52,818 bases of DNA, from the NCBI GenBank assembly GCA_046539305.1, contig JBKHHE010000005.1:1-52818 (forward strand), written 5' to 3'. This DNA is from Candidatus Aenigmatarchaeota archaeon (GTDB lineage Archaea; Aenigmatarchaeota; Aenigmatarchaeia; PWEA01). A model generated the notes under the pieces. That model was not told the origin of the DNA and did not search any database. It saw only the letters and a list, made by a program, of their open reading frames with translations. Positions 6,137 through 52,818 of the stretch are shown here, in pieces (the stretch's first letter is position 1; each line of letters opens with the position of its first letter). Made by a program: the position numbers and the translations under genes.

Positions 6137-6913
6137 GTGAGTCAGATTCCCAGCCTCGGGGATTTAGAGGACTATCAATCCCCCGCCGACGCGTACTTCT
6201 CTGAAAACGAGCCCGAGAGGATGCTTCTCCTGGCCGACACACATTACAAAGAGGATAAATTCTTCGAAGATAAACCCCTCAAGAGCGACCTAAACAAACT
6301 GGAGGAAATCGGTGATATCTTCGAAATAGATGAAATAGTGTGGGCGGGAGACTGTACATATAGCCCCGGTGACATAATCGACTTTAAAAACTCAGACTTT
6401 TCAAAGAAGAGGGTGGTTATGGGAAACCATGATAGGGAGGATGATGCCTGGTCCTTTGAAGAAGTGTTTGGTGAAACTTTGCCCGAACTGGATGACATAG
6501 ACTACGAAAAATACGAAACTGTGTGGTCGATTGGAAAGGACAGGAAATACGATGTGTGTATGAGACATGAATCCCAGGGGATGGGACTAAGTCCCACGGG
6601 GAGGGGTTCCCCCTACCAAAAATACAATGAATTTGATATACTAATCCACGGCCATCGACACATTCCCTACTACAGAGTTCTCGACAACAGGAAGATGGGG
6701 GTGGGCCTTGGGAGTCTCTTCTCAAACTACACCGAGGACCGAACCATTCCAAGGAGAAGCATCCAGATCATGGAGGTGGATGGTGTAATCGACGTAAAAC
6801 ATATAGACTTTGATGAGATGAGCGTCGTAGAGGAAATCGTGTTTGGTGAGGAGAATGGGGTATTTGGTATGTTGGAAAAATGGGGAAGGGGAGCGCAGGA
6901 GATATTCAGCTAG
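6137..6913 (+). CDS. Calcineurin-like metallophosphoesterase
   Basis: Motifs ADTH, AGD, GNHD, H and HGHRH. Confidence 0.8.
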   Translation: MSQIPSLGDLEDYQSPADAYFSENEPERMLLLADTHYKEDKFFEDKPLKSDLNKLEEIGDIFEIDEIVWAGDCTYSPGDIIDFKNSDFSKKRVVMGNHDREDDAWSFEEVFGETLPELDDIDYEKYETVWSIGKDRKYDVCMRHESQGMGLSPTGRGSPYQKYNEFDILIHGHRHIPYYRVLDNRKMGVGLGSLFSNYTEDRTIPRRSIQIMEVDGVIDVKHIDFDEMSVVEEIVFGEENGVFGMLEKWGRGAQEIFS

Positions 6914-6919
6914 AGGTCT

Positions 6920-7084
6920 CTAGCTCTCGTTATTTAGAAGTCTGTTAATCTCGGTTTGGGAAACCTTGTCCCTGGGACCAAGATATTTCAAAACCTTCTG
7001 CCTGACGTTATCACCTTCCCGTATACTCTCCACAAGGTAGAGATAGGTGTTGCCTGCGATTTGCTTCTCTCTGACAAAGGCCAT
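6920..7084 (-). CDS. 54-aa basic protein resembling the N-terminal beta-sheet domain of IS1634-family transposases (standalone)
   Basis: Manually translated: [54 protein letters not shown]. The pattern M.F.R.K...G..Y.YLVES.R.G..VRQ..L.YLG is typical of that domain. Below the ORF-track cutoff. Confidence 0.75.
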
Positions 7085-7090
7085 GTTCTC

Positions 7091-7140
7091 TTTTAGGCAC
7101 TACAGATTTTTAAGTATTCAATAAAGTTTAGGCACTACAT
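7091..7140 (+). repeat. Dispersed motif copies 4 and 5 (7091-7104, 7127-7140)
   Basis: TTTTAGGCACTACA and TTTAGGCACTACAT in tandem, between the start of the 54-aa gene and the first ORB. Confidence 0.9.
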
Positions 7141-7157
7141 AATTTCCGAAGTCCCCA

Positions 7158-7448
7158 ACACCCCCATTTCAAGTAGAAACTAAATTCGGGGGTGGGACCA
7201 TCACCAGTTTCTATATAACATTGTTATCTTCTTTTATACATACATACAAACACCCCTTTCCACATGAAACAATGGTGTCTGAGGGTTGAAACATCTTCAT
7301 AATATTCATTTTCGGCTCCACGTGAAACAATGGGGTGTAATTTCTCCCACGTTAAGGAAAGTTACGATCCTTTAAAAACCAGAGCACCTCCACCTGAAAC
7401 AGGGGGGTGTTTTGTTTTCATGTTAAACACCCCTTCATTTCACGTGCA
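7158..7448. promoter_or_regulatory. oriC: Replication origin (oriC) with five ORB boxes and an AT-rich DUE candidate
   Basis: ORB-like boxes at 7158-7178(-) TTCTACTTGAAATGGGGGTGT, 7258-7278 TTCCACATGAAACAATGGTGT, 7316-7338 CTCCACGTGAAACAATGGGGTGT, 7388-7410 CTCCACCTGAAACAGGGGGGTGT and 7427-7448(-) TGCACGTGAAATGAAGGGGTGT. AT-rich stretch at about 7208-7250; directly upstream of cdc6. Confidence 0.85.
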
Positions 7449-7535
7449 AATAGATTTTTATAGAAACCATATCTATTTTTACCACAGACAATCGCTCCGT
7501 CCTCAACGGATGTGGGGTGTATTGGGGGTATTTCC

Positions 7536-8747
7536 ATGAAACAGCAATCACTTGAGGCTATGTTCGACGAGTATATAGAAAGCGAGGGCGTGTTCAAAGA
7601 AAAGCAAACCCTTTCTACAAACTACAAACCCCTGAAACTTCCCCACAGGGAAGAAGAGATCCAGTCCGTGGCGTCTTTGCTCGCTCCCTCCCTTAAAGGG
7701 AACAAACCTTCAAACCTCTTTATTTATGGCAAGACGGGAACAGGAAAGAGCGCGGTTATAAAGTACGTCACTAAAAAGCTCAGGGAAAAGGGAGAGGAGA
7801 ACGGAACCGAAGTCAAAATAATATACCTCAACTGCAAGCTCAGAAAGGTTGCGGACACCGAGTACAGGCTTATGGCTGAGCTGGCGAGGAGGTTTGGTGA
7901 GGACGTGCCTTCGACGGGGTTACCCACTGACGAGGTTTACGAGAGATTTTTCGACGCCCTCGATACCAAGGAAAGGATAGTTATACTCATACTTGATGAA
8001 ATAGACTCCCTTGTTGAAAAAACAGGCGACGAGTTTCTGTACAACCTCACGAGGGTGAACGAGGAATTGAAAAATTCACGTTTGGGTTTGGTAGGCATTT
8101 CCAACGACCTTTCCTTTACGGACGATCTGGACCCCAGAGTGAAGTCCAGCCTTTCCGAAGAGGAAATACTTTTCAGTCCCTACAACGCCTCTCAACTCAA
8201 GGACATACTTGAGACAAGGGCAGGGAAAGCTTTCCATGAGGACTCCGTTGACCAGGGCGTAGTTCAGAAGTGCGCGGCTCTGGCTGCACAGGAACATGGG
8301 GATGCCAGAAGGGCCATAGACCTCATGAGGGTTGCGGGCGAGCTTGCCGAGCGCGGGGGGCAGAGCAAGGTAAAACGCGAACACGTGGACAGGGCGGAAA
8401 ACGAGATAGACAGAAACAAGGTTCTGGAGGTAGTTGAAAGCCAGCCGAGACAGTCCCAGGCAGTGCTCTGGTCCATAATAAAACTTTACGAGAAGAGGGA
8501 GGAAATGGTTCAGACGGGGGACGTCCATTCTCTCTACGAGAAGGTCTGTGAATCCTCGGGGTTGGATCCCCTGACCCAGAGGCGCGTTTCGGATCTGATT
8601 TCCGAGCTGGATATGCTGGGAATAATAAAGGCCGAAGTTACATCTCAGGGCAGATACGGCAGAACGCGCCTCATAAGACCCGCGATGTCTCAGAACGTGA
8701 AAAACCAGGTCAAAGATTTACTCAAAAGCAAATACTTTTTCGGTTGA
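7536..8747 (+). CDS. cdc6: Orc1/Cdc6 replication initiator
   Basis: LPHREEEI, Walker A GKTGTGKS, Walker B ILDEID, LDPRVKSSL, GDARRAIDL, and wHTH with GRYGRTR. Confidence 0.97.
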   Translation: MKQQSLEAMFDEYIESEGVFKEKQTLSTNYKPLKLPHREEEIQSVASLLAPSLKGNKPSNLFIYGKTGTGKSAVIKYVTKKLREKGEENGTEVKIIYLNCKLRKVADTEYRLMAELARRFGEDVPSTGLPTDEVYERFFDALDTKERIVILILDEIDSLVEKTGDEFLYNLTRVNEELKNSRLGLVGISNDLSFTDDLDPRVKSSLSEEEILFSPYNASQLKDILETRAGKAFHEDSVDQGVVQKCAALAAQEHGDARRAIDLMRVAGELAERGGQSKVKREHVDRAENEIDRNKVLEVVESQPRQSQAVLWSIIKLYEKREEMVQTGDVHSLYEKVCESSGLDPLTQRRVSDLISELDMLGIIKAEVTSQGRYGRTRLIRPAMSQNVKNQVKDLLKSKYFFG

Positions 8748-8749
8748 TT

Positions 8750-8896
8750 ATGAAGAAGATAGTTTTGAAAGAATGGGAGGACAGAGGTACTTCAAAGGTC
8801 AAGATATCCTTTCAGAACGAAGAAAGGGGGATGAAAGAGGCCATACTCCCAAGGGAAAAGGTAAGCGAATTTCTGGAAGAAAGTGGATGGTTCTAA
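8750..8896 (+). CDS. 48-aa hypothetical microprotein between cdc6 and the DP1-like gene
   Basis: MKKIVLKEWEDRGTSKVKISFQNEERGMKEAILPREKVSEFLEESGWF*. Starts 2 nt after the cdc6 stop; its TAA overlaps the next ATG (TAATG). Confidence 0.65.
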   Translation: MKKIVLKEWEDRGTSKVKISFQNEERGMKEAILPREKVSEFLEESGWF

Positions 8897-9915
8897 TGAG
8901 TGTGGTCGAAGAATTTCTTGAGAAAGGCAAGCTCATCTCTCCCGGAGCAGAGGAAGAAGTCCGAAACCTCGAAGAGAAGGAAGTCCAGGACCTCCTAAGT
9001 TCTTCTTCTTTGGTCGTAGGCCAGGAGGATATTAAGAGGATGGAGACACCACAACCTGTTATCGAAAGTGAAGAGGTGGTGAAGAAGGATGAGATACACG
9101 TTTCCAATTTCACGGAGTTTTACCTTGAGAGGTTCAAGTTCCTTAAGGAGGAAATCAAGCAAAGAATGAAAGACAAGGATGTTTCGTCTATAAAGAACGT
9201 CTCCGGCGGAGAGGCCTCTATAATAGGGATGGTCAGAAGTCAGGAAGATGGGAAAGCGGTTGTGGAAGACAACACAGGCAAAATAACCCTCAGGACACCG
9301 GAGAACTTTCTGGAGGACGAAGTTATAGGGGCCACGGGCAAAGTCATAGAAAACGAAGAGGTGGTGATGAGCCCTGAAAAGATTTTCTACCCCGACGTTC
9401 CCCTCGACAAAGACGTGAAGAGCCTTGAACGGGACCTGAGGGCGCTCTTTGTTTCCGAGATTGACAAAAATTCGGAGGAGAAGATAAAGGAGCTCAACCC
9501 CGACTATGTATTCTCCACGGGTGAGGTGGAGGACTCCGGTCGGATAGGCAGTTACGTGGTTTTTGTATCAGAAACCCCCAACGAATATTCTGGAACGGAT
9601 CCCGTGCGCTGCGATATAGAGGACCTGAGGATACTTATCCATGAGGGAAGCGCAGCTAACAAGGCACAGGAAGAGCTAGGGTATGACAGGAGAAAGACAG
9701 TTATATCCCTACTCAAGAAGAGGCACCTCAACCCCATAGAGATGCACTCTCTCAGGGACAAATATCTCCTCAAGGAGGTCCCTGATATAATCCATACTTC
9801 CGATGGCGAAGATGCCGCGGTGAACTACAAGGGCGTGACCCTCCTCTCGACCACAGAAGAAACAGGCTTTCTAGTTAATCTAGGAACCAGAGAGATAGAA
9901 GAAGTAGAACTTTAG
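8896..9915 (+). CDS. Inactivated paralog of DNA polymerase D small subunit (DP1 / B-subunit-like)
   Basis: DP1-like segments FLEKGKLISP, F..FY..RF..LK, OB fold IIGMV...EDNTG...DEVIG..G, IFYPDVP, LLKKRHLNP, EVPDIIHT and YKGV.L. The phosphoesterase metal ligands (SDxH, GD, GNHD, GHxH) are absent. Confidence 0.8.
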   Translation: MSVVEEFLEKGKLISPGAEEEVRNLEEKEVQDLLSSSSLVVGQEDIKRMETPQPVIESEEVVKKDEIHVSNFTEFYLERFKFLKEEIKQRMKDKDVSSIKNVSGGEASIIGMVRSQEDGKAVVEDNTGKITLRTPENFLEDEVIGATGKVIENEEVVMSPEKIFYPDVPLDKDVKSLERDLRALFVSEIDKNSEEKIKELNPDYVFSTGEVEDSGRIGSYVVFVSETPNEYSGTDPVRCDIEDLRILIHEGSAANKAQEELGYDRRKTVISLLKKRHLNPIEMHSLRDKYLLKEVPDIIHTSDGEDAAVNYKGVTLLSTTEETGFLVNLGTREIEEVEL

Positions 9916-9997
9916 CTCACCGACGATCAACTATTGACTGTTGTATATTCTTTCAAGTCAAGAAATGCATTTTATTAATGAAAACAAAGGTTGTGTT

Positions 9998-12733
9998 ATG
10001 AAAGTCCAGGTTCTAGACGCGGACTACAGGATGATAAACAACCACCCCGTCACGAGGCTGTTTGGGAAGACGGAAGACGGGGAAACGGTCTGTGTCCTGG
10101 ACGAAGACTTCAGACCTTATTTCTACTGCTTGCCAAGAAACAACAACGGTGCCAGAGAGGACATCCTTGAGCTCCTTGAGGAAGAGTTCCCTGGAGAGGT
10201 GGAGAAGATTGAAGAAGTGGAGAGATACCTCCCGATTGGTTTCAACCCCGACAAGGAAAAGATTCTGAAGATAGTTCTTCGGAATCCCTCCAAGGTCCCC
10301 GAGCTGAGAAAATACCTCGGTAGGAACAACGCCGTCGAAGAGCTGTACGAGACGGACATACTCTTCAAGTACAGATATCTGTTGGACCATTCAACCGGTG
10401 GGATGCGCTGGGTAGAGGTGGACGGGAGCTACGTGGACACCGACACCGTAGATTGCAAAGCTATCCAGGCCGAAGATATAGAGCCATTGGATCTCACGGA
10501 GAACCAGGACCTCACCTATCTTTCCTTTGACATAGAATGTATACCGGAAGAGGAGGGAAGGATGGTGGATGCCGAGAAGGATCCAATAGTCCTCATCTCC
10601 TGCTCCTTTGAGCCCGAGTTCAGGGGAGATAAAAACATGGTGCTTGTGGCGAAGGGCGGTAACACCTCGGGAACACATTTCCGGAACGAGGAGGCAATGC
10701 TGGAGGAGTTCCTGAAGATAATAGAGGATTACGATCCCGATGTCATAACCGGATACAACGTCGAGGACTTCGATCTCCCCTATCTGCTCACAAGGCTGAA
10801 GAAATACGACTTGGACAGAGACTTTGGGAGGTGTGGGAAAAATGTCTATGCTAGAAACTACGGCAGTGGAACCGACGTCAATATAACGGGCAGGGTAGTG
10901 GTCGATCCCTATATAATTCTTAAAAACGACGTCTATCGAAGGATGATGAGATACGACCTTGACACGGTATCAAAGGAGCTCCTCGGTGAAGGTAAGGAGG
11001 ATGTGGAGTACGAGGAGATGAAGGAACTCTGGAACTCTGGAGGCGAGGACCTCCAGCGCTTCGTGAAATACTGTGAGAAGGACGCCAGCCTCGCTCTCCG
11101 ACTTCTCACGGAAAAAAGCCTCTTGGACAAGTTCTTTGAACTGGCGAAGACCTCCCGGCTCCTTCTAGGTGACTGTTTTGGCGGGCAGACGCAACGGGTC
11201 AGCAACATGCTCCTTTACGAGTTCATGAAGAGAGATTTTGTGTTCCCACAGAAACCTTCGGATGAGGAGGTGGGAAAACGGAAGGACAGGAGGGAGGAAG
11301 AAGCACTAAAAGGCGGCCTAGTCCTCGAGCCGGAGAAAGGTCTCCATACCGATTCATGTATATCCGTCCTGGACTTCAAATCCCTGTATCCCTCCATAAT
11401 GGGCACCTACAACATATGTCCTTCAACCCTTCTGGGGGGAAGCCCGGAGGAACATGGCCTCGACGAGGAAGATGTTCACGAGTCCCCATCTGGGGGTAGG
11501 TTCGTGAAAAGGGACACAAGGAAAGGAATACTTGCGAAGACCGTCGAGGACCTTATAGATGCAAGGACTGAAGTGAAGAAAAAAAGAAAAGAGGCGAAGC
11601 AGGAGGGCAACGAGGAAAAGTATGACAGGCTGGACGCCAAACAACACGCGTTAAAGATAATGACAAACAGCTTCTACGGCTACACAGGCTACTACAGGAC
11701 AAGGCTTTACAGGCTCGAGATAGCAAACGCCATAACTTCCTATGGGAGGAGAACCATAGAGAAGACGAGGGACATGGTCCAGGAGAAATTTGGAATAAAA
11801 ACAGTCTACGGCGACACTGATTCAATCATGGTTAACGCCAAAACCAAAAACCTTGACGAGGCCCAGGACCTTTCACAGAAGATATCCAAGTTCGTTACCG
11901 ACGAACTTCCGGGGCGGCTGATACTGGAACCGGAAAAAATCTACAGAAGTTTCCTCATACTGACCAAGAAAAGGTATGCGGGATGGGCTTTCGAAAAAAC
12001 AAACGGGGATTGGGAGGAAGATATAGACATGAAGGGTATAGAGACCGTTAGGAGGGACTGGCCTCCCATAGTTTCCGAAACCATGGAGGATGTTATAGAC
12101 ATAATTCTGAAGGAGGGAGATATAAACAAAGCCATAGAACACGTCCAGGAGAAAATAGAAAAACTATCCAGGGGCGAGGTCCCTCTCGAGCAGCTTGCGG
12201 TCGTGAAATCCATAACAAAGAAACTCGAAAACTACGACGGAGTCTTACCTCATATAGAGCTGGCGAAAAAAATAAAGGATAGAAACCCCTCCAACCCTCC
12301 CACACCAGGGCAGAGAATTCCCTACGTGATAATCAAGGGAAATCAGATGTTGTCAAAGCGCGTGGAACACCCGGACTACATAAAGGAGAACGATTTGAAA
12401 GTGGACTCTGGCTACTACATAAACTCCCAGCTTTTACCCCCACTTGAACGAATATTCAACGTTATAGGTGTAGACAAACAGGAGTTGCTGGGGGATGGAA
12501 GACAGGCGACGATGGACGAGATAGTCAACGGCGGCTCGGTTGACAGGGACAGGGATGTTTCAGTGAACAAGGATCCAAGAGAAACCACGGTGGAAGAACT
12601 CAACGGGTTCGAATGCAAGGAATGTGGGAAGAAGTTCAGACGTGTTCCGCTTAAAGGCAAATGCGGGTGTGGTGGCGAGATTTACTTCGTTGGAAACGGG
12701 TCAATAGGAAAGAAGGTGGCCGCAAACGCCTGA
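9998..12733 (+). CDS. polB: Family B DNA polymerase with C-terminal DP2-type Zn finger
   Basis: Exo motifs FDIEC, GYNVEDFDLPYL, YCEKD; Pol motifs DFKSLYPS, KIMTNSFYGY, YGDTDS, KKRY; C-terminal CKEC-x12-CGCGG. Confidence 0.95.
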   Translation: MKVQVLDADYRMINNHPVTRLFGKTEDGETVCVLDEDFRPYFYCLPRNNNGAREDILELLEEEFPGEVEKIEEVERYLPIGFNPDKEKILKIVLRNPSKVPELRKYLGRNNAVEELYETDILFKYRYLLDHSTGGMRWVEVDGSYVDTDTVDCKAIQAEDIEPLDLTENQDLTYLSFDIECIPEEEGRMVDAEKDPIVLISCSFEPEFRGDKNMVLVAKGGNTSGTHFRNEEAMLEEFLKIIEDYDPDVITGYNVEDFDLPYLLTRLKKYDLDRDFGRCGKNVYARNYGSGTDVNITGRVVVDPYIILKNDVYRRMMRYDLDTVSKELLGEGKEDVEYEEMKELWNSGGEDLQRFVKYCEKDASLALRLLTEKSLLDKFFELAKTSRLLLGDCFGGQTQRVSNMLLYEFMKRDFVFPQKPSDEEVGKRKDRREEEALKGGLVLEPEKGLHTDSCISVLDFKSLYPSIMGTYNICPSTLLGGSPEEHGLDEEDVHESPSGGRFVKRDTRKGILAKTVEDLIDARTEVKKKRKEAKQEGNEEKYDRLDAKQHALKIMTNSFYGYTGYYRTRLYRLEIANAITSYGRRTIEKTRDMVQEKFGIKTVYGDTDSIMVNAKTKNLDEAQDLSQKISKFVTDELPGRLILEPEKIYRSFLILTKKRYAGWAFEKTNGDWEEDIDMKGIETVRRDWPPIVSETMEDVIDIILKEGDINKAIEHVQEKIEKLSRGEVPLEQLAVVKSITKKLENYDGVLPHIELAKKIKDRNPSNPPTPGQRIPYVIIKGNQMLSKRVEHPDYIKENDLKVDSGYYINSQLLPPLERIFNVIGVDKQELLGDGRQATMDEIVNGGSVDRDRDVSVNKDPRETTVEELNGFECKECGKKFRRVPLKGKCGCGGEIYFVGNGSIGKKVAANA

Positions 12734-27403: not shown

Positions 27404-27492
27404 AGCCCCGTAGTCTAGCGGTCAAATTATGAGGCCAAGGATGTGAGGTTCTGGACCTCATGGCCCAGGTTCGAATCCTGGCGGGGCTACCA
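27404..27492 (+). tRNA. tRNA-Gln(CTG) with 13-nt intron in the D-arm (about 27426-27438)
   Basis: Acceptor AGCCCCG/CGGGGCT, anticodon arm TGAGG-TTCTGGA-CCTCA, T-arm CCAGG-TTCGAAT-CCTGG, encoded CCA, extra 13 nt in the D-loop. Confidence 0.9.
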
Positions 27493-39632: not shown

Positions 39633-39763
39633 GGGCGCGTAGCTCAGCTTGGACAGAGCACTGGCCTTCTAACCACCCTTTACTCGCTTACGCTCGCAAA
39701 ACGTGGGCGAAAAGGGAAGAGGAAAGCCAGGGGTCGTGGGTTCAAATCCCACCGCGTCCGCCA
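39633..39763 (+). tRNA. tRNA-Arg(TCT) with 53-nt intron at 37/38 (39672-39724)
   Basis: Acceptor GGGCGCG/CGCGTCC, CTGGC-CTTCTA..A-GCCAG, BHB helix CTTC/GAGG, encoded CCA. Confidence 0.92.
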
Positions 39764-52772: not shown

Positions 52773-52818
52773 GCGCCCGGAGCAGGATTCGAACCTGCGA
52801 CAACCACGTTAACAGCGT
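52773..52818 (-). tRNA. tRNA-Asn(GTT), 3' portion (truncated by window end)
   Basis: Minus strand ..ACG-CTGTTAA-CGTGG, GCAGG-TTCGAAT-CCTGC, TCCGGGC-G. Confidence 0.85.

What the first reader, a model, noticed from the sequence alone, without database searches (positions are those of the whole stretch)
8896..12733. Eukaryote-like two-subunit polymerase: exonuclease-dead DP1 paralog next to a PolB carrying the DP2 C-terminal Zn finger, at the origin
Seen: 8896-9915 keeps the DP1 scaffold (N-terminal helix, OB fold, RHLxP, VPDIxH) but every phosphoesterase metal-binding motif is eroded. It has FVSEI for ISDxH, no GD or GNHD, IHEG for YHG, and HTSD for HTGHxH. The adjacent PolB has intact Exo and Pol motifs. 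After a PIP-like QATMDEIV it ends in FECKECGKKFRRVPLKGKCGCGGEI (about 12608-12688). Established: PolD DP2 ends in FRCxxCxxKYRRxPLxGKCxxCGG, part of the domain that docks DP1. Eukaryotic Pol alpha/delta/epsilon use a Cys-rich C-terminal domain to bind B subunits, which are inactivated DP1 homologs. Inference: this archaeon may assemble a PolB + dead-DP1 holoenzyme encoded downstream of cdc6, an archaeal parallel or relative of the eukaryotic architecture. I recall that C-terminal Zn fingers in some archaeal PolBs have been noted before, so novelty lies mainly in the linked dead DP1 and the untested complex.
Basis: partly seen in the sequence, partly recalled or inferred. Interest (0 to 1): 0.87.

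Follow-up and report, generated by a model that had tools for sequence, protein, structure and literature searches.

The report
Known PolB plus dead-DP1 polymerase pair
This small archaeal genome has lost its usual replicative polymerase and instead pairs a family-B polymerase ending in a borrowed zinc finger with an exonuclease-dead DP1 subunit, a eukaryote-like design already described and interaction-tested for this phylum.

Summary
Window 8896-9915 encodes a 339-aa protein with the DP1/B-subunit fold (AF2 pLDDT 89.9; best PDB matches are P. abyssi DP1, then human Pol delta/epsilon/alpha B-subunits). Its phosphoesterase motifs are eroded and the GNHD segment is deleted. The next gene (9998-12733) is a PolB with invariant exo and pol motifs, a conserved PIP-like box and a C-terminal Cys4 finger that matches only the DP2 C-terminus. 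The genome (89.8% complete) shows no DP2 and no second DP1. ORB repeats and orc1/cdc6 lie upstream.

The dead DP1 is under purifying selection (dN/dS about 0.09). The order cdc6, DP1-like, PolB holds in 11 of 11 order-level relatives. The pair lies within 8 kb in 111 of 119 DP2-less genomes of the phylum. A complex model passes its controls (0.70 against 0.03).

It is not new. Kazlauskas et al. 2020 (PMC7544198) described this Aenigmarchaeota "B6-aenigma1" PolB with inactivated DP1 and no DP2. A 2025 paper (PMC12680538) reports AlphaFold3 and yeast two-hybrid evidence for the interaction.

The parts
7158..7450 (.). Cluster of origin-recognition-box-like repeats (about 23 nt, CTCCACGTGAAACAATGGGGTGT type). 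Three are direct copies and two are inverted copies, in the 598-nt gap upstream of orc1/cdc6. This is the putative replication origin.
   Evidence: the repeat finder families D1/D2 and inverted pairs I1/I2; sequence read. That they are ORB elements is my reading from their likeness to the archaeal ORB consensus (recalled); binding was not tested.
7512..8747 (+). orc1/cdc6 replication initiator (411 aa).
   Evidence: NCBIfam NF001625 ORC1-type, E 1.1e-158, 528 bits, above the cut-off of 501. Pfam Cdc6_C, Cdc6_lid and AAA.
8896..9915 (+). Exonuclease-dead DP1 / B-subunit-like protein (339 aa). It has an N-terminal helical domain (residues 1-60), a long helix plus OB fold (residues 61-165) and a shrunken phosphoesterase-fold relic (residues 166-339).
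   Evidence: AF2 model pLDDT 89.9, pTM 0.85. Foldseek top hits are P. abyssi DP1 (9f29_A, E 1.5e-19; 5ihe), then Pol delta p50, Pol epsilon p59 and Pol alpha B. Motif loss is shown. dN/dS is 0.087 for the closest pair.
9076..9390 (+). Helix plus OB part of the DP1-like protein (residues 61-165). It holds the predicted docking surface for the PolB zinc finger: residues 63-80, 112-115, 124-128 and 140-141, including the invariant E124 and D125 and the nearly invariant D141 and E142.
   Evidence: Interface list of complex prediction. This is the most conserved segment of the protein (mean pairwise identity 0.63 in 21 close homologues).
9998..12733 (+). Family-B DNA polymerase (911 aa) with intact 3'-5' exonuclease and polymerase motifs.
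   Evidence: Pfam DNA_pol_B E 1.5e-109 and DNA_pol_B_exo1 E 8.4e-34. Invariant residues in 70 homologues: D178/E180, N254/D259, Y358/D362 (exo); D459..Y464, K553..G561, D606/D608 (pol).
12503..12526 (+). PIP-like box QATMDEIV (residues 836-843), at the place where canonical archaeal PolBs end.
   Evidence: Conserved as GRQxx[LM]x[DE]hh in the alignment of 118 PolB C-termini. Q836 is invariant and G832/G834/R835 are nearly invariant. PCNA binding was not tested, and the two aromatic positions of the canonical PIP are aliphatic here.
12608..12730 (+). DP2 Zn-III-like Cys4 finger (C873, C876, C889, C891) with the basic FRRVPL loop and a conserved tail (G901). This is the predicted DP1-docking module.
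   Evidence: NCBIfam DP2 models hit residues 871-905 (E 2e-5). A same-phylum DP2 matches C5:12608-12727 (40% over 42 aa; a weak match, E 0.021, close to a chance-level C1 match at E 0.048) and no other stretch reaches E below 0.02, so no DP2 body is seen. The cysteines are invariant in 70 homologues. Predicted contacts are residues 881-887, 895-897 and 904-909.

Best explanation
The locus encodes the main replicase of a DP2-less Aenigmatarchaeota archaeon. It is a two-subunit enzyme.

The catalytic subunit is a proofreading-competent family-B polymerase. After its PIP-like box it carries a single Cys4 zinc finger derived from the third zinc module of the PolD large subunit DP2. The basic RRxPL loop of this finger, and the short strand after it, dock into the acidic groove formed by the OB fold and the preceding helix of the small subunit.

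The small subunit is a shrunken DP1 that has lost its phosphoesterase (exonuclease) site. It serves only as a structural or adaptor subunit, as the B-subunits of eukaryotic Pol alpha, delta and epsilon do.

The genes follow orc1/cdc6 next to an ORB-bearing origin.

Shown here: fold, motif loss, absence of DP2 in the assembly, purifying selection, conserved linkage. Predicted here: the interface. Shown by others for the phylum: the two-hybrid interaction. Inferred: the adaptor role and PCNA binding.
For: Fold and motif loss:
- The DP1/B-subunit fold is supported.
- The catalytic motifs are lost and not conserved among 21 close homologues.
- The PolB exo and pol motifs are invariant.

Origin of the finger and absence of PolD:
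- The finger matches only DP2 C-termini.
- The own genome has no PF03833, no PF04042 and no tblastn match to a DP2 body or a second DP1.
- In the phylum sample of 151 genomes (including G000), the DP1-like protein is found in 136, the CTD finger in 145 and the DP2 N-domain in only 8.

Linkage:
- Of 119 DP2-less genomes with both places listed, 87 have DP1-like and PolB co-directional with a median gap of 2635 nt, 3 have the reverse order, 21 are on opposite strands within 8 kb, and 8 are on different contigs.
- 11 of 11 order-level loci keep cdc6, DP1-like, PolB.

Selection:
- dN/dS is 0.087 for DP1-like and 0.010 for cdc6 in the closest pair, L005/L006.

Complex model:
- ipSAE is 0.70 (runs 0.70, 0.67, 0.70) against a best control of 0.03.
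- That mark was reached by 58 of 80 solved complexes and 2 of 110 mismatched pairs.
- The runs share at least 77% of their contacts, and the partner pLDDT is at least 63.
- R881, R882 and L885 contact E124, D125 and D141.

Literature (passages read):
- PMC7544198 sections 19-21.
- PMC12680538 section 6: two-hybrid and AF3 show DP1 binding PolB-DP2CTD in Aenigmatarchaeota, and not binding PolBs that lack the CTD.
- PMC6355029 section 9: Zn-III with the KxRRxP loop docks in the acidic OB/PDE groove of DP1.
Against: - The complex model may pass from memory, because DP1-DP2 CTD and B-subunit-CTD complexes are solved. It shows likeness, not binding of this copy.
- My own alignments were used, so the calibration counts hold only roughly.
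- No confident contact to the PDE relic was predicted. In PolD the finger sits at the OB/PDE interface.
- The assembly is 89.8% complete, so absence of DP2 in this one genome is not proven.
- The published two-hybrid test used other Aenigmatarchaeota proteins. I could not see which, because supplements are closed.
- A second PolB without a finger exists in the genome (C12), so which PolB is the main replicase is inferred.
- dS is saturated in most pairs: 11 of 21 DP1-like pairs gave no estimate.
Confidence: 0.85

Rival explanations
1. The DP1-like gene is a decaying leftover of a lost PolD with no present function, a recent pseudogene that still happens to be open.
For: It evolves faster than its neighbours. 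Within the genus its amino-acid identity is 50-54%, against 79-82% for cdc6 and 72-75% for the PolB N-half. Its dN is 3-5 times higher. All catalytic motifs are gone.
Against: - The frame is open and full-length in all 12 order-level genomes, and matches occur in 136 of 151 genomes of the phylum sample.
- dN/dS is 0.087 in the closest pair and 0.066-0.124 in the nine other pairs that gave an estimate.
- The helix/OB surface and the KRHLxP and PDI motifs are invariant or nearly so.
- The model is confident.
Confidence: 0.03
2. The zinc finger works mainly as a DNA-binding or primase-binding element of PolB, and the neighbouring DP1-like protein acts elsewhere.
For: [quoted passage not shown] PMC12680538 (section 7 passage) reports a primase to DP2-CTD two-hybrid interaction in Heimdallarchaeia.
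Against: - The predicted finger/DP1-like interface uses the invariant RRxPL loop and the invariant acidic residues.
- The pair lies within 8 kb in 111 of 119 DP2-less genomes.
- A two-hybrid interaction is published for the phylum (PMC12680538, section 6).
- The two roles do not exclude each other.
Confidence: 0.07
3. The DP1-like protein keeps a nuclease or phosphoesterase activity through a rebuilt active site.
For: Several histidines stay conserved in the close family: H68, H249, H277, H284 and H300. In the window's copy, acidic residues replace the ligands of motifs I and II (E, D, E).
Against: - The replacements at motifs I and II are not conserved among the 21 close homologues (SEID, TEIT, SGIG, SKID and others).
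- The GNHD segment is deleted.
- There is no Metallophos Pfam hit.
- The PolB partner has its own intact exonuclease.
Confidence: 0.04

Closest known systems
Aenigmarchaeota 'B6-aenigma1' PolB with the 'Aenigma_GB_GCA_002789635-like' inactive DP1 (Kazlauskas et al. 2020, PMC7544198). Interaction tested by AlphaFold3 and yeast two-hybrid in PMC12680538 (2025).
   Same: - PolB with one C-terminal Cys4 motif that is most like DP2 zfIII.
- DP2 absent.
- DP1 inactivated.
- Same phylum: every source-named homologue that bears a phylum name is an Aenigmatarchaeota/Aenigmarchaeota MAG protein, and one is labelled only 'archaeon'.
   Different: Nothing in kind. This is another genus of the phylum. I did not place the PolB in the B6 clade by phylogeny, and I could not see the papers' supplements listing which genomes they used. 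What may be additions are:
- the phylum-wide linkage counts;
- the cdc6/ORB context;
- the series from partly to fully eroded DP1;
- the interface restricted to helix plus OB.
Archaeal PolD: DP1 bound to the DP2 C-terminal domain (P. abyssi, PDB 6hms/6t8h; PMC6355029).
   Same: - The small subunit has the same fold.
- The finger has a KxRRxP-type basic loop that docks on an acidic groove of the small subunit (compared with the section 9 passage).
   Different: - The catalytic subunit is a PolB, not the two-barrel DP2.
- The helical bundle of the DP2 CTD is missing.
- The small subunit has no exonuclease site and is about 140 residues shorter.
Eukaryotic Pol alpha, delta and epsilon: catalytic-subunit CTD bound to the B-subunit (PDB 4y97, 6tny, 5vbn).
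   Same: A family-B catalytic subunit is tethered by a C-terminal metal-binding module to an inactivated DP1 homologue. The B-subunits are the next-best structural matches.
   Different: - There is one Cys4 motif instead of CysA plus CysB.
- There is no helical bundle.
- The B-subunit is much smaller.
- Descent of the eukaryotic enzymes from this lineage is not implied. PMC12680538 favours Baldrarchaeia PolB3 as the closer relative.
Baldrarchaeia PolB3 fused to the DP2 CTD (PMC12680538).
   Same: PolB plus a DP2-derived CTD, DP1 retained, DP2 lost, and DP1 binding shown by two-hybrid.
   Different: According to that paper's Extended Data Fig. 6 legend, the Aenigmatarchaeota CTD is shorter ('degenerate') and has a different predicted structure.

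Membership tests
DP1 / polymerase B-subunit family | N-terminal domain plus OB fold plus calcineurin-like phosphoesterase fold. | tested here: met
   AF2 model pLDDT 89.9. The Foldseek top 40 or so matches are DP1 and eukaryotic B-subunits, best E 1.5e-19, TM (query-normalised) 0.59-0.68.
DP1 / polymerase B-subunit family | Sequence match to the curated family models (Pfam PF04042 DNA_pol_E_B; NCBIfam DP1 equivalogs). | tested here: not met
   No Pfam hit at E <= 0.1. PF04042 is not found in the genome. The NCBIfam hit is partial, 83 bits against a cut-off of 445. Homology is nevertheless shown by phmmer links to PF04042-bearing DP1s (E 7e-10 to 6e-5).
Active DP1 (PolD proofreading exonuclease) | The five phosphoesterase motifs: DxH, GD, GNH(D/E), H and GHxH. 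| tested here: not met
   Motifs I, II and V are replaced, motif III is deleted, and only the motif IV His is kept.
B6-aenigma1-type PolB (Kazlauskas 2020) | Family-B polymerase with a single C-terminal Cys4 motif most similar to DP2 Zn-III. | tested here: met
B6-aenigma1-type PolB (Kazlauskas 2020) | Occurs in Aenigmarchaeota genomes that lack DP2 and have an inactive DP1. | tested here: met
   The taxon rests on source names of homologues, not on a marker-gene tree.
B6-aenigma1-type PolB (Kazlauskas 2020) | Placement inside the B6 clade of the PolB tree. | not tested
   No reference sequences of the other PolB groups were fetched and no tree was built.
PolD (DP1-DP2) | Presence of the DP2 two-barrel catalytic subunit. 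| tested here: not met
   PF03833 is absent from the assembly, which is 89.8% complete. A same-phylum DP2 of 1106 aa gives as its best match only the 42-aa finger of PolB (E 0.021), plus chance-level matches elsewhere (C1 E 0.048; the rest E 5 or more), and no DP2 body.
Eukaryotic replicative PolB catalytic subunits (alpha/delta/epsilon CTD) | CTD with two metal-binding motifs (CysA and CysB) and a helical bundle. | tested here: not met
   Only four cysteines lie downstream of the thumb (C873, C876, C889, C891). About 27 mostly non-conserved residues lie between the PIP-like box and the finger. The locus works like this family but is not a member.
PolB/B-subunit holoenzyme | Physical binding of the CTD to the small subunit. 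| tested here: inconclusive
   The model supports binding (0.70 against a best control of 0.03), but the pass may come from likeness to solved complexes. The published two-hybrid test (PMC12680538) is for other members of the phylum.

The most novel reading that the evidence does not exclude
In these archaea the polymerase may dock only on the helix plus OB part of the dead DP1. The shrunken phosphoesterase relic makes no confident predicted contact with PolB. It is nevertheless kept under purifying selection, with invariant KRHLxP and PDI motifs. It could therefore be the landing pad for another replisome component such as GINS/CMG, primase or RPA. That would mean the 'B-subunit as replisome adaptor' role arose in archaea as soon as the exonuclease became redundant. 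The series seen in the phylum, from forms that keep four of five motifs to fully eroded forms, would then record the conversion step by step.
Probability: 0.3. Interest if true: 0.55.

Novelty: already known. Interest (0 to 1): 0.27.

Why it matters
The architecture matters for the origin of eukaryotic replicative polymerases. It shows that three changes could all happen inside archaea: replacing the DP2 core by a PolB, keeping the DP2 finger, and silencing DP1. That point has already been made in print and partly tested for this phylum. This window therefore adds an example and some quantitative context rather than a discovery:
- linkage to orc1/cdc6 and an ORB origin;
- phylum-wide gene-order counts;
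- dN/dS;
- a predicted interface limited to the OB side.

Tried and rejected
1. Upstream metallophosphoesterase (6137-6913) as a split-off or replacement DP1 nuclease: rejected.
- It is a generic Metallophos_2/YfcE-like protein.
- It has no PDB sequence match.
- It is found in only 4 of 21 relatives including G000, and on contigs other than those bearing the DP1-like/PolB pair (one search compared).

2. In-situ replacement of DP2 by PolB inside an ancestral cdc6-DP1-DP2 operon (such an operon in Pyrococcus is recalled, not from a call): not supported.
- In the phylum's own PolD-bearing genomes the DP1 and DP2 places are on different contigs in 8 of 8.
- In 7 of 7 fetched f7 loci, DP1 has neither cdc6, PolB nor DP2 beside it. 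Several of these loci end at contig ends.

3. phmmer of the DP1-like protein against PDB sequences found nothing at E <= 10. Only the fold search linked it to DP1.

4. dN/dS: dS was saturated in most pairs. No estimate came back for 11 of 21 DP1-like pairs, 15 of 21 cdc6 pairs and 18 of 21 PolB pairs, so only the closer pairs are informative.

5. Rfam found only three tRNAs in the window, and nothing in 6900-12733.

6. The literature search for 'Aenigmatarchaeota' + 'DNA polymerase' + 'B-subunit' returned 0 papers. The searches found the relevant papers.

7. Papers seen only in search listings and not read: PMC4996933, PMC13136892, PMC4187176.

8. Supplements of PMC7544198 and PMC12680538 were not seen (closed). 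They hold the motif alignments, the genome lists and the tested constructs, and could show that the erosion series or the gene order is already documented.

Full report
**What is there.** The stretch holds three co-directional genes.
- orc1/cdc6 lies at 7512-8747. It matches NCBIfam NF001625 at E 1.1e-158, above the cut-off.
- A 339-aa ORF lies at 8896-9915.
- A PolB lies at 9998-12733.

The 598-nt gap upstream of cdc6 carries five copies of a 22-23-nt repeat of the CTCCACGTGAAACAATGGGGTGT type, in both orientations, between 7158 and 7450. I read these as origin recognition boxes by likeness to the archaeal ORB consensus (recalled).

The window is contig 5 of a 695,701-base, 17-contig assembly that is 89.8% complete. 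Every homologue of both proteins that carries a phylum name from its source is an Aenigmatarchaeota/Aenigmarchaeota MAG protein, apart from one labelled only 'archaeon'.

**The small protein.** Sequence searches give little.
- It has no Pfam hit.
- It has no PDB sequence hit.
- It has only a partial NCBIfam DP1 match, 83 bits against a cut-off of 445.

phmmer links it through a chain of 300-400-aa proteins to canonical DP1s of 440-590 aa that carry PF04042.

The AF2 model from a 60-row alignment is confident (pLDDT 89.9, pTM 0.85). It shows an N-terminal helical domain, a long helix, an OB barrel and an alpha/beta domain. Foldseek against the PDB puts P. abyssi DP1 first (9f29_A, E 1.5e-19; also 6t8h, 5ihe, 6hmf). 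Human Pol delta p50 (6tny_B), Pol epsilon p59 (5vbn_A) and Pol alpha B (4y97_G) follow.

In the alignments the active DP1s show FISDxH, GDxVDG, GNHD, YHG and GHxH. The window's protein compares as follows.
- It has FVSEID in place of motif I.
- It has STGEVED in place of motif II.
- It has a deletion where GNHD lies.
- It has IHEG at motif IV.
- It has SDGED in place of motif V.

The replacements at motifs I and II vary freely among the 21 close homologues, so no alternative metal site is conserved. Only the motif IV histidine persists.

**The PolB.** Pfam DNA_pol_B scores E 1.5e-109 and the exo domain E 8.4e-34. In 70 homologues the exo I/II/III and pol A/B/C residues are invariant.

After the thumb comes a conserved GRQxx[LM]x[DE]hh box (QATMDEIV here). 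A variable linker of about 27 residues follows. Then comes FxCxxCx3[FY]RRxPLxGxCxCGG with four invariant cysteines and a conserved tail.

The finger hits only the C-terminal 35-38 positions of the NCBIfam DP2 models (E 2e-5 to 3e-4). A DP2 of 1106 aa taken from a PolD-bearing genome of the same phylum has the finger as its best tblastn match in this genome (40% over 42 aa, E 0.021, close to a chance-level match on C1 at E 0.048). It finds no DP2 body.

**No PolD.** PF03833 and PF04042 are absent from the assembly. A canonical DP1 finds only the 8896-9915 gene (E 1.9e-13).

A second PolB lies on contig 12. It is at least 727 aa, has active-looking motifs, and ends in QESLEDFP with no finger.

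**Is the small gene alive?** Evidence that it is:
- The frame is open in all 12 order-level genomes, and matches occur in 136 of 151 genomes of the phylum sample.
- For the closest pair of loci (L005/L006), dN/dS by NG86 is 0.087 (dN 0.122, dS 1.41) for the DP1-like gene and 0.010 for cdc6.
- The nine other DP1-like pairs that gave an estimate range from 0.066 to 0.124. Eleven of 21 pairs were saturated.

The gene evolves faster than its neighbours. Within the genus its identity is 50-54%, against 79-82% for cdc6 and 72-75% for the PolB N-half. It is far from neutral.

Conservation is highest in the helix plus OB part (0.63) and in the last 80 residues (0.62). It is lowest in the N-terminal domain (0.45) and the first half of the relic (0.46).

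**Linkage.** All 11 fetched loci from the same genus, family and order keep cdc6, DP1-like, PolB.

I compared the listed places across the phylum sample (coordinates transcribed by hand). Places for both genes were listed in 127 genomes.

| Arrangement in the 119 genomes without DP2 | Genomes |
|---|---|
| DP1-like upstream of PolB, same strand (median 2635 nt from the DP1 match to the finger, about one PolB length) | 87 |
| Reverse order, same strand | 3 |
| Opposite strands, within 8 kb | 21 |
| Different contigs | 8 |

- The eight genomes with a DP2 N-domain are all 7 of family f7 plus G090. They have the two places on different contigs.
- In six of the seven f7 genomes the 'finger' match sits on the DP2 contig itself.
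- In seven f7 loci the canonical-size DP1 (450-494 aa; one of 847 aa) has neither cdc6, PolB nor DP2 beside it.

PolD and the PolB-finger/short-DP1 pair therefore look mutually exclusive in the genomes searched. The gene triplet is a feature of the DP2-less lineages.

**Binding.** Complex prediction was run with the DP1-like alignment and PolB residues 828-911.
- Its verdict was that the model supports binding but does not show it.
- The ipSAE was 0.70 (runs 0.70, 0.67, 0.70) against a best control of 0.03.
- That mark was reached by 58 of 80 solved complexes and 2 of 110 mismatched pairs.
- The runs share at least 77% of their contacts, and the partner pLDDT is at least 63.

Because DP1-DP2 CTD and B-subunit-CTD complexes are solved, the pass may reflect likeness rather than binding of this copy. 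My own alignments also make the calibration counts approximate.

The confident contacts join PolB 881-887 (RRVPLKG), 895-897 and 904-909 to DP1-like 63-80, 112-115, 124-128 and 140-141. These include the invariant E124 and D125 and the nearly invariant D141. This mirrors the published PolD interface, where the KxRRxP loop of Zn-III lies in an acidic groove of DP1 (PMC6355029, section 9 passage). No confident contact reaches the phosphoesterase relic. That fits the absence here of the DP2 helical bundle, which binds that domain in PolD.

**What is known.** I read passages of three papers and no supplements.

Kazlauskas et al. 2020 (PMC7544198, sections 19-21) describe the following.
- DP2 is absent from most sequenced Aenigmarchaeota.
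- An 'Aenigma' group of DP1 homologues is inactive and co-occurs with these PolBs.
- The authors propose that the CTD came from DP2 zfIII by recombination and that DP1 inactivation became affordable because PolB proofreads.

The 2025 Nature Ecology & Evolution paper (PMC12680538, section 6 and the Extended Data Fig. 6 legend) states the following.
- The Aenigmatarchaeota PolB has a shorter, 'degenerate' DP2 CTD.
- AlphaFold3 and yeast two-hybrid show DP1 binding the PolB-DP2CTD in both clades, and not binding PolBs without the CTD.

**Verdict.** The finding is a further member of a described and partly tested system.

Possible small additions are listed below. I cannot tell whether the papers' supplements already cover them.
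- The conserved orc1/cdc6, DP1-like, PolB order next to an ORB origin.
- The phylum-wide linkage counts.
- The dN/dS estimate.
- The series from DP1 forms that keep four of five motifs (for example P0030, P0033, P0037, P0039) to fully eroded ones.
- The hint that docking uses only the OB side, which leaves the conserved relic free for another partner.

Noticed in passing
G000 contig 12, about 8891-10057 (-), locus L014 1435-3618: A second family-B polymerase in the same genome. It is at least 727 aa (the frame runs off the fetched locus) and has exo and pol motifs. It has no zinc-finger CTD and ends in a canonical-looking PIP (QESLEDFP).
   Followed up: partly
window 6137-6913 (+): A stand-alone calcineurin-like metallophosphoesterase with intact DxH, GD, GNHD and GHxH motifs lies just upstream of the origin. 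It is not conserved in this position: it was found in 4 of 21 relatives including G000, on other contigs. It is therefore not part of the polymerase module.
   Followed up: yes
proteins P0030, P0032, P0033, P0037, P0038, P0039: DP1 forms of about 390 aa from the same phylum keep FISDxH, GD, HG and GHxH but lack GNHD. Other forms (P0022-P0029, P0031) have lost everything. Together they make a graded erosion series of the exonuclease site.
   Followed up: partly
PolB homologues P0103, P0108, P0110, P0121, P0128 and others; G138 locus L021 4681-7224: Many PolB-CTD orthologues are 1300-1460 aa and carry intein Pfam domains (PF14890, PF14528). One canonical DP1 of the PolD-bearing family is 847 aa with a large insert between its two matching halves, possibly also an intein.
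   Followed up: no
families f17 and f11 of the phylum sample (for example G130, G060, G098, G012, G029, G142): In 21 genomes the DP1-like gene and PolB lie on opposite strands 1.6-5.5 kb apart instead of in tandem. This is a lineage-specific rearrangement that still keeps them close.
   Followed up: partly
window 39633-39760 (+) and 27404-27489 (+): Two tRNA matches are longer than a standard tRNA (128 and 86 nt). The first probably contains an intron. A third tRNA is cut by the window end at 52774-52818.
   Followed up: no
G090 (family f12), contigs C64, C11 and C30: This is the only genome outside family f7 with a DP2 N-domain. A DP1-like match lies next to that DP2 on C64, there is a second DP1-like match on C11, and there is a PolB finger fragment on C30. 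It could be a mixed bin, a transfer or a transitional state.
   Followed up: no
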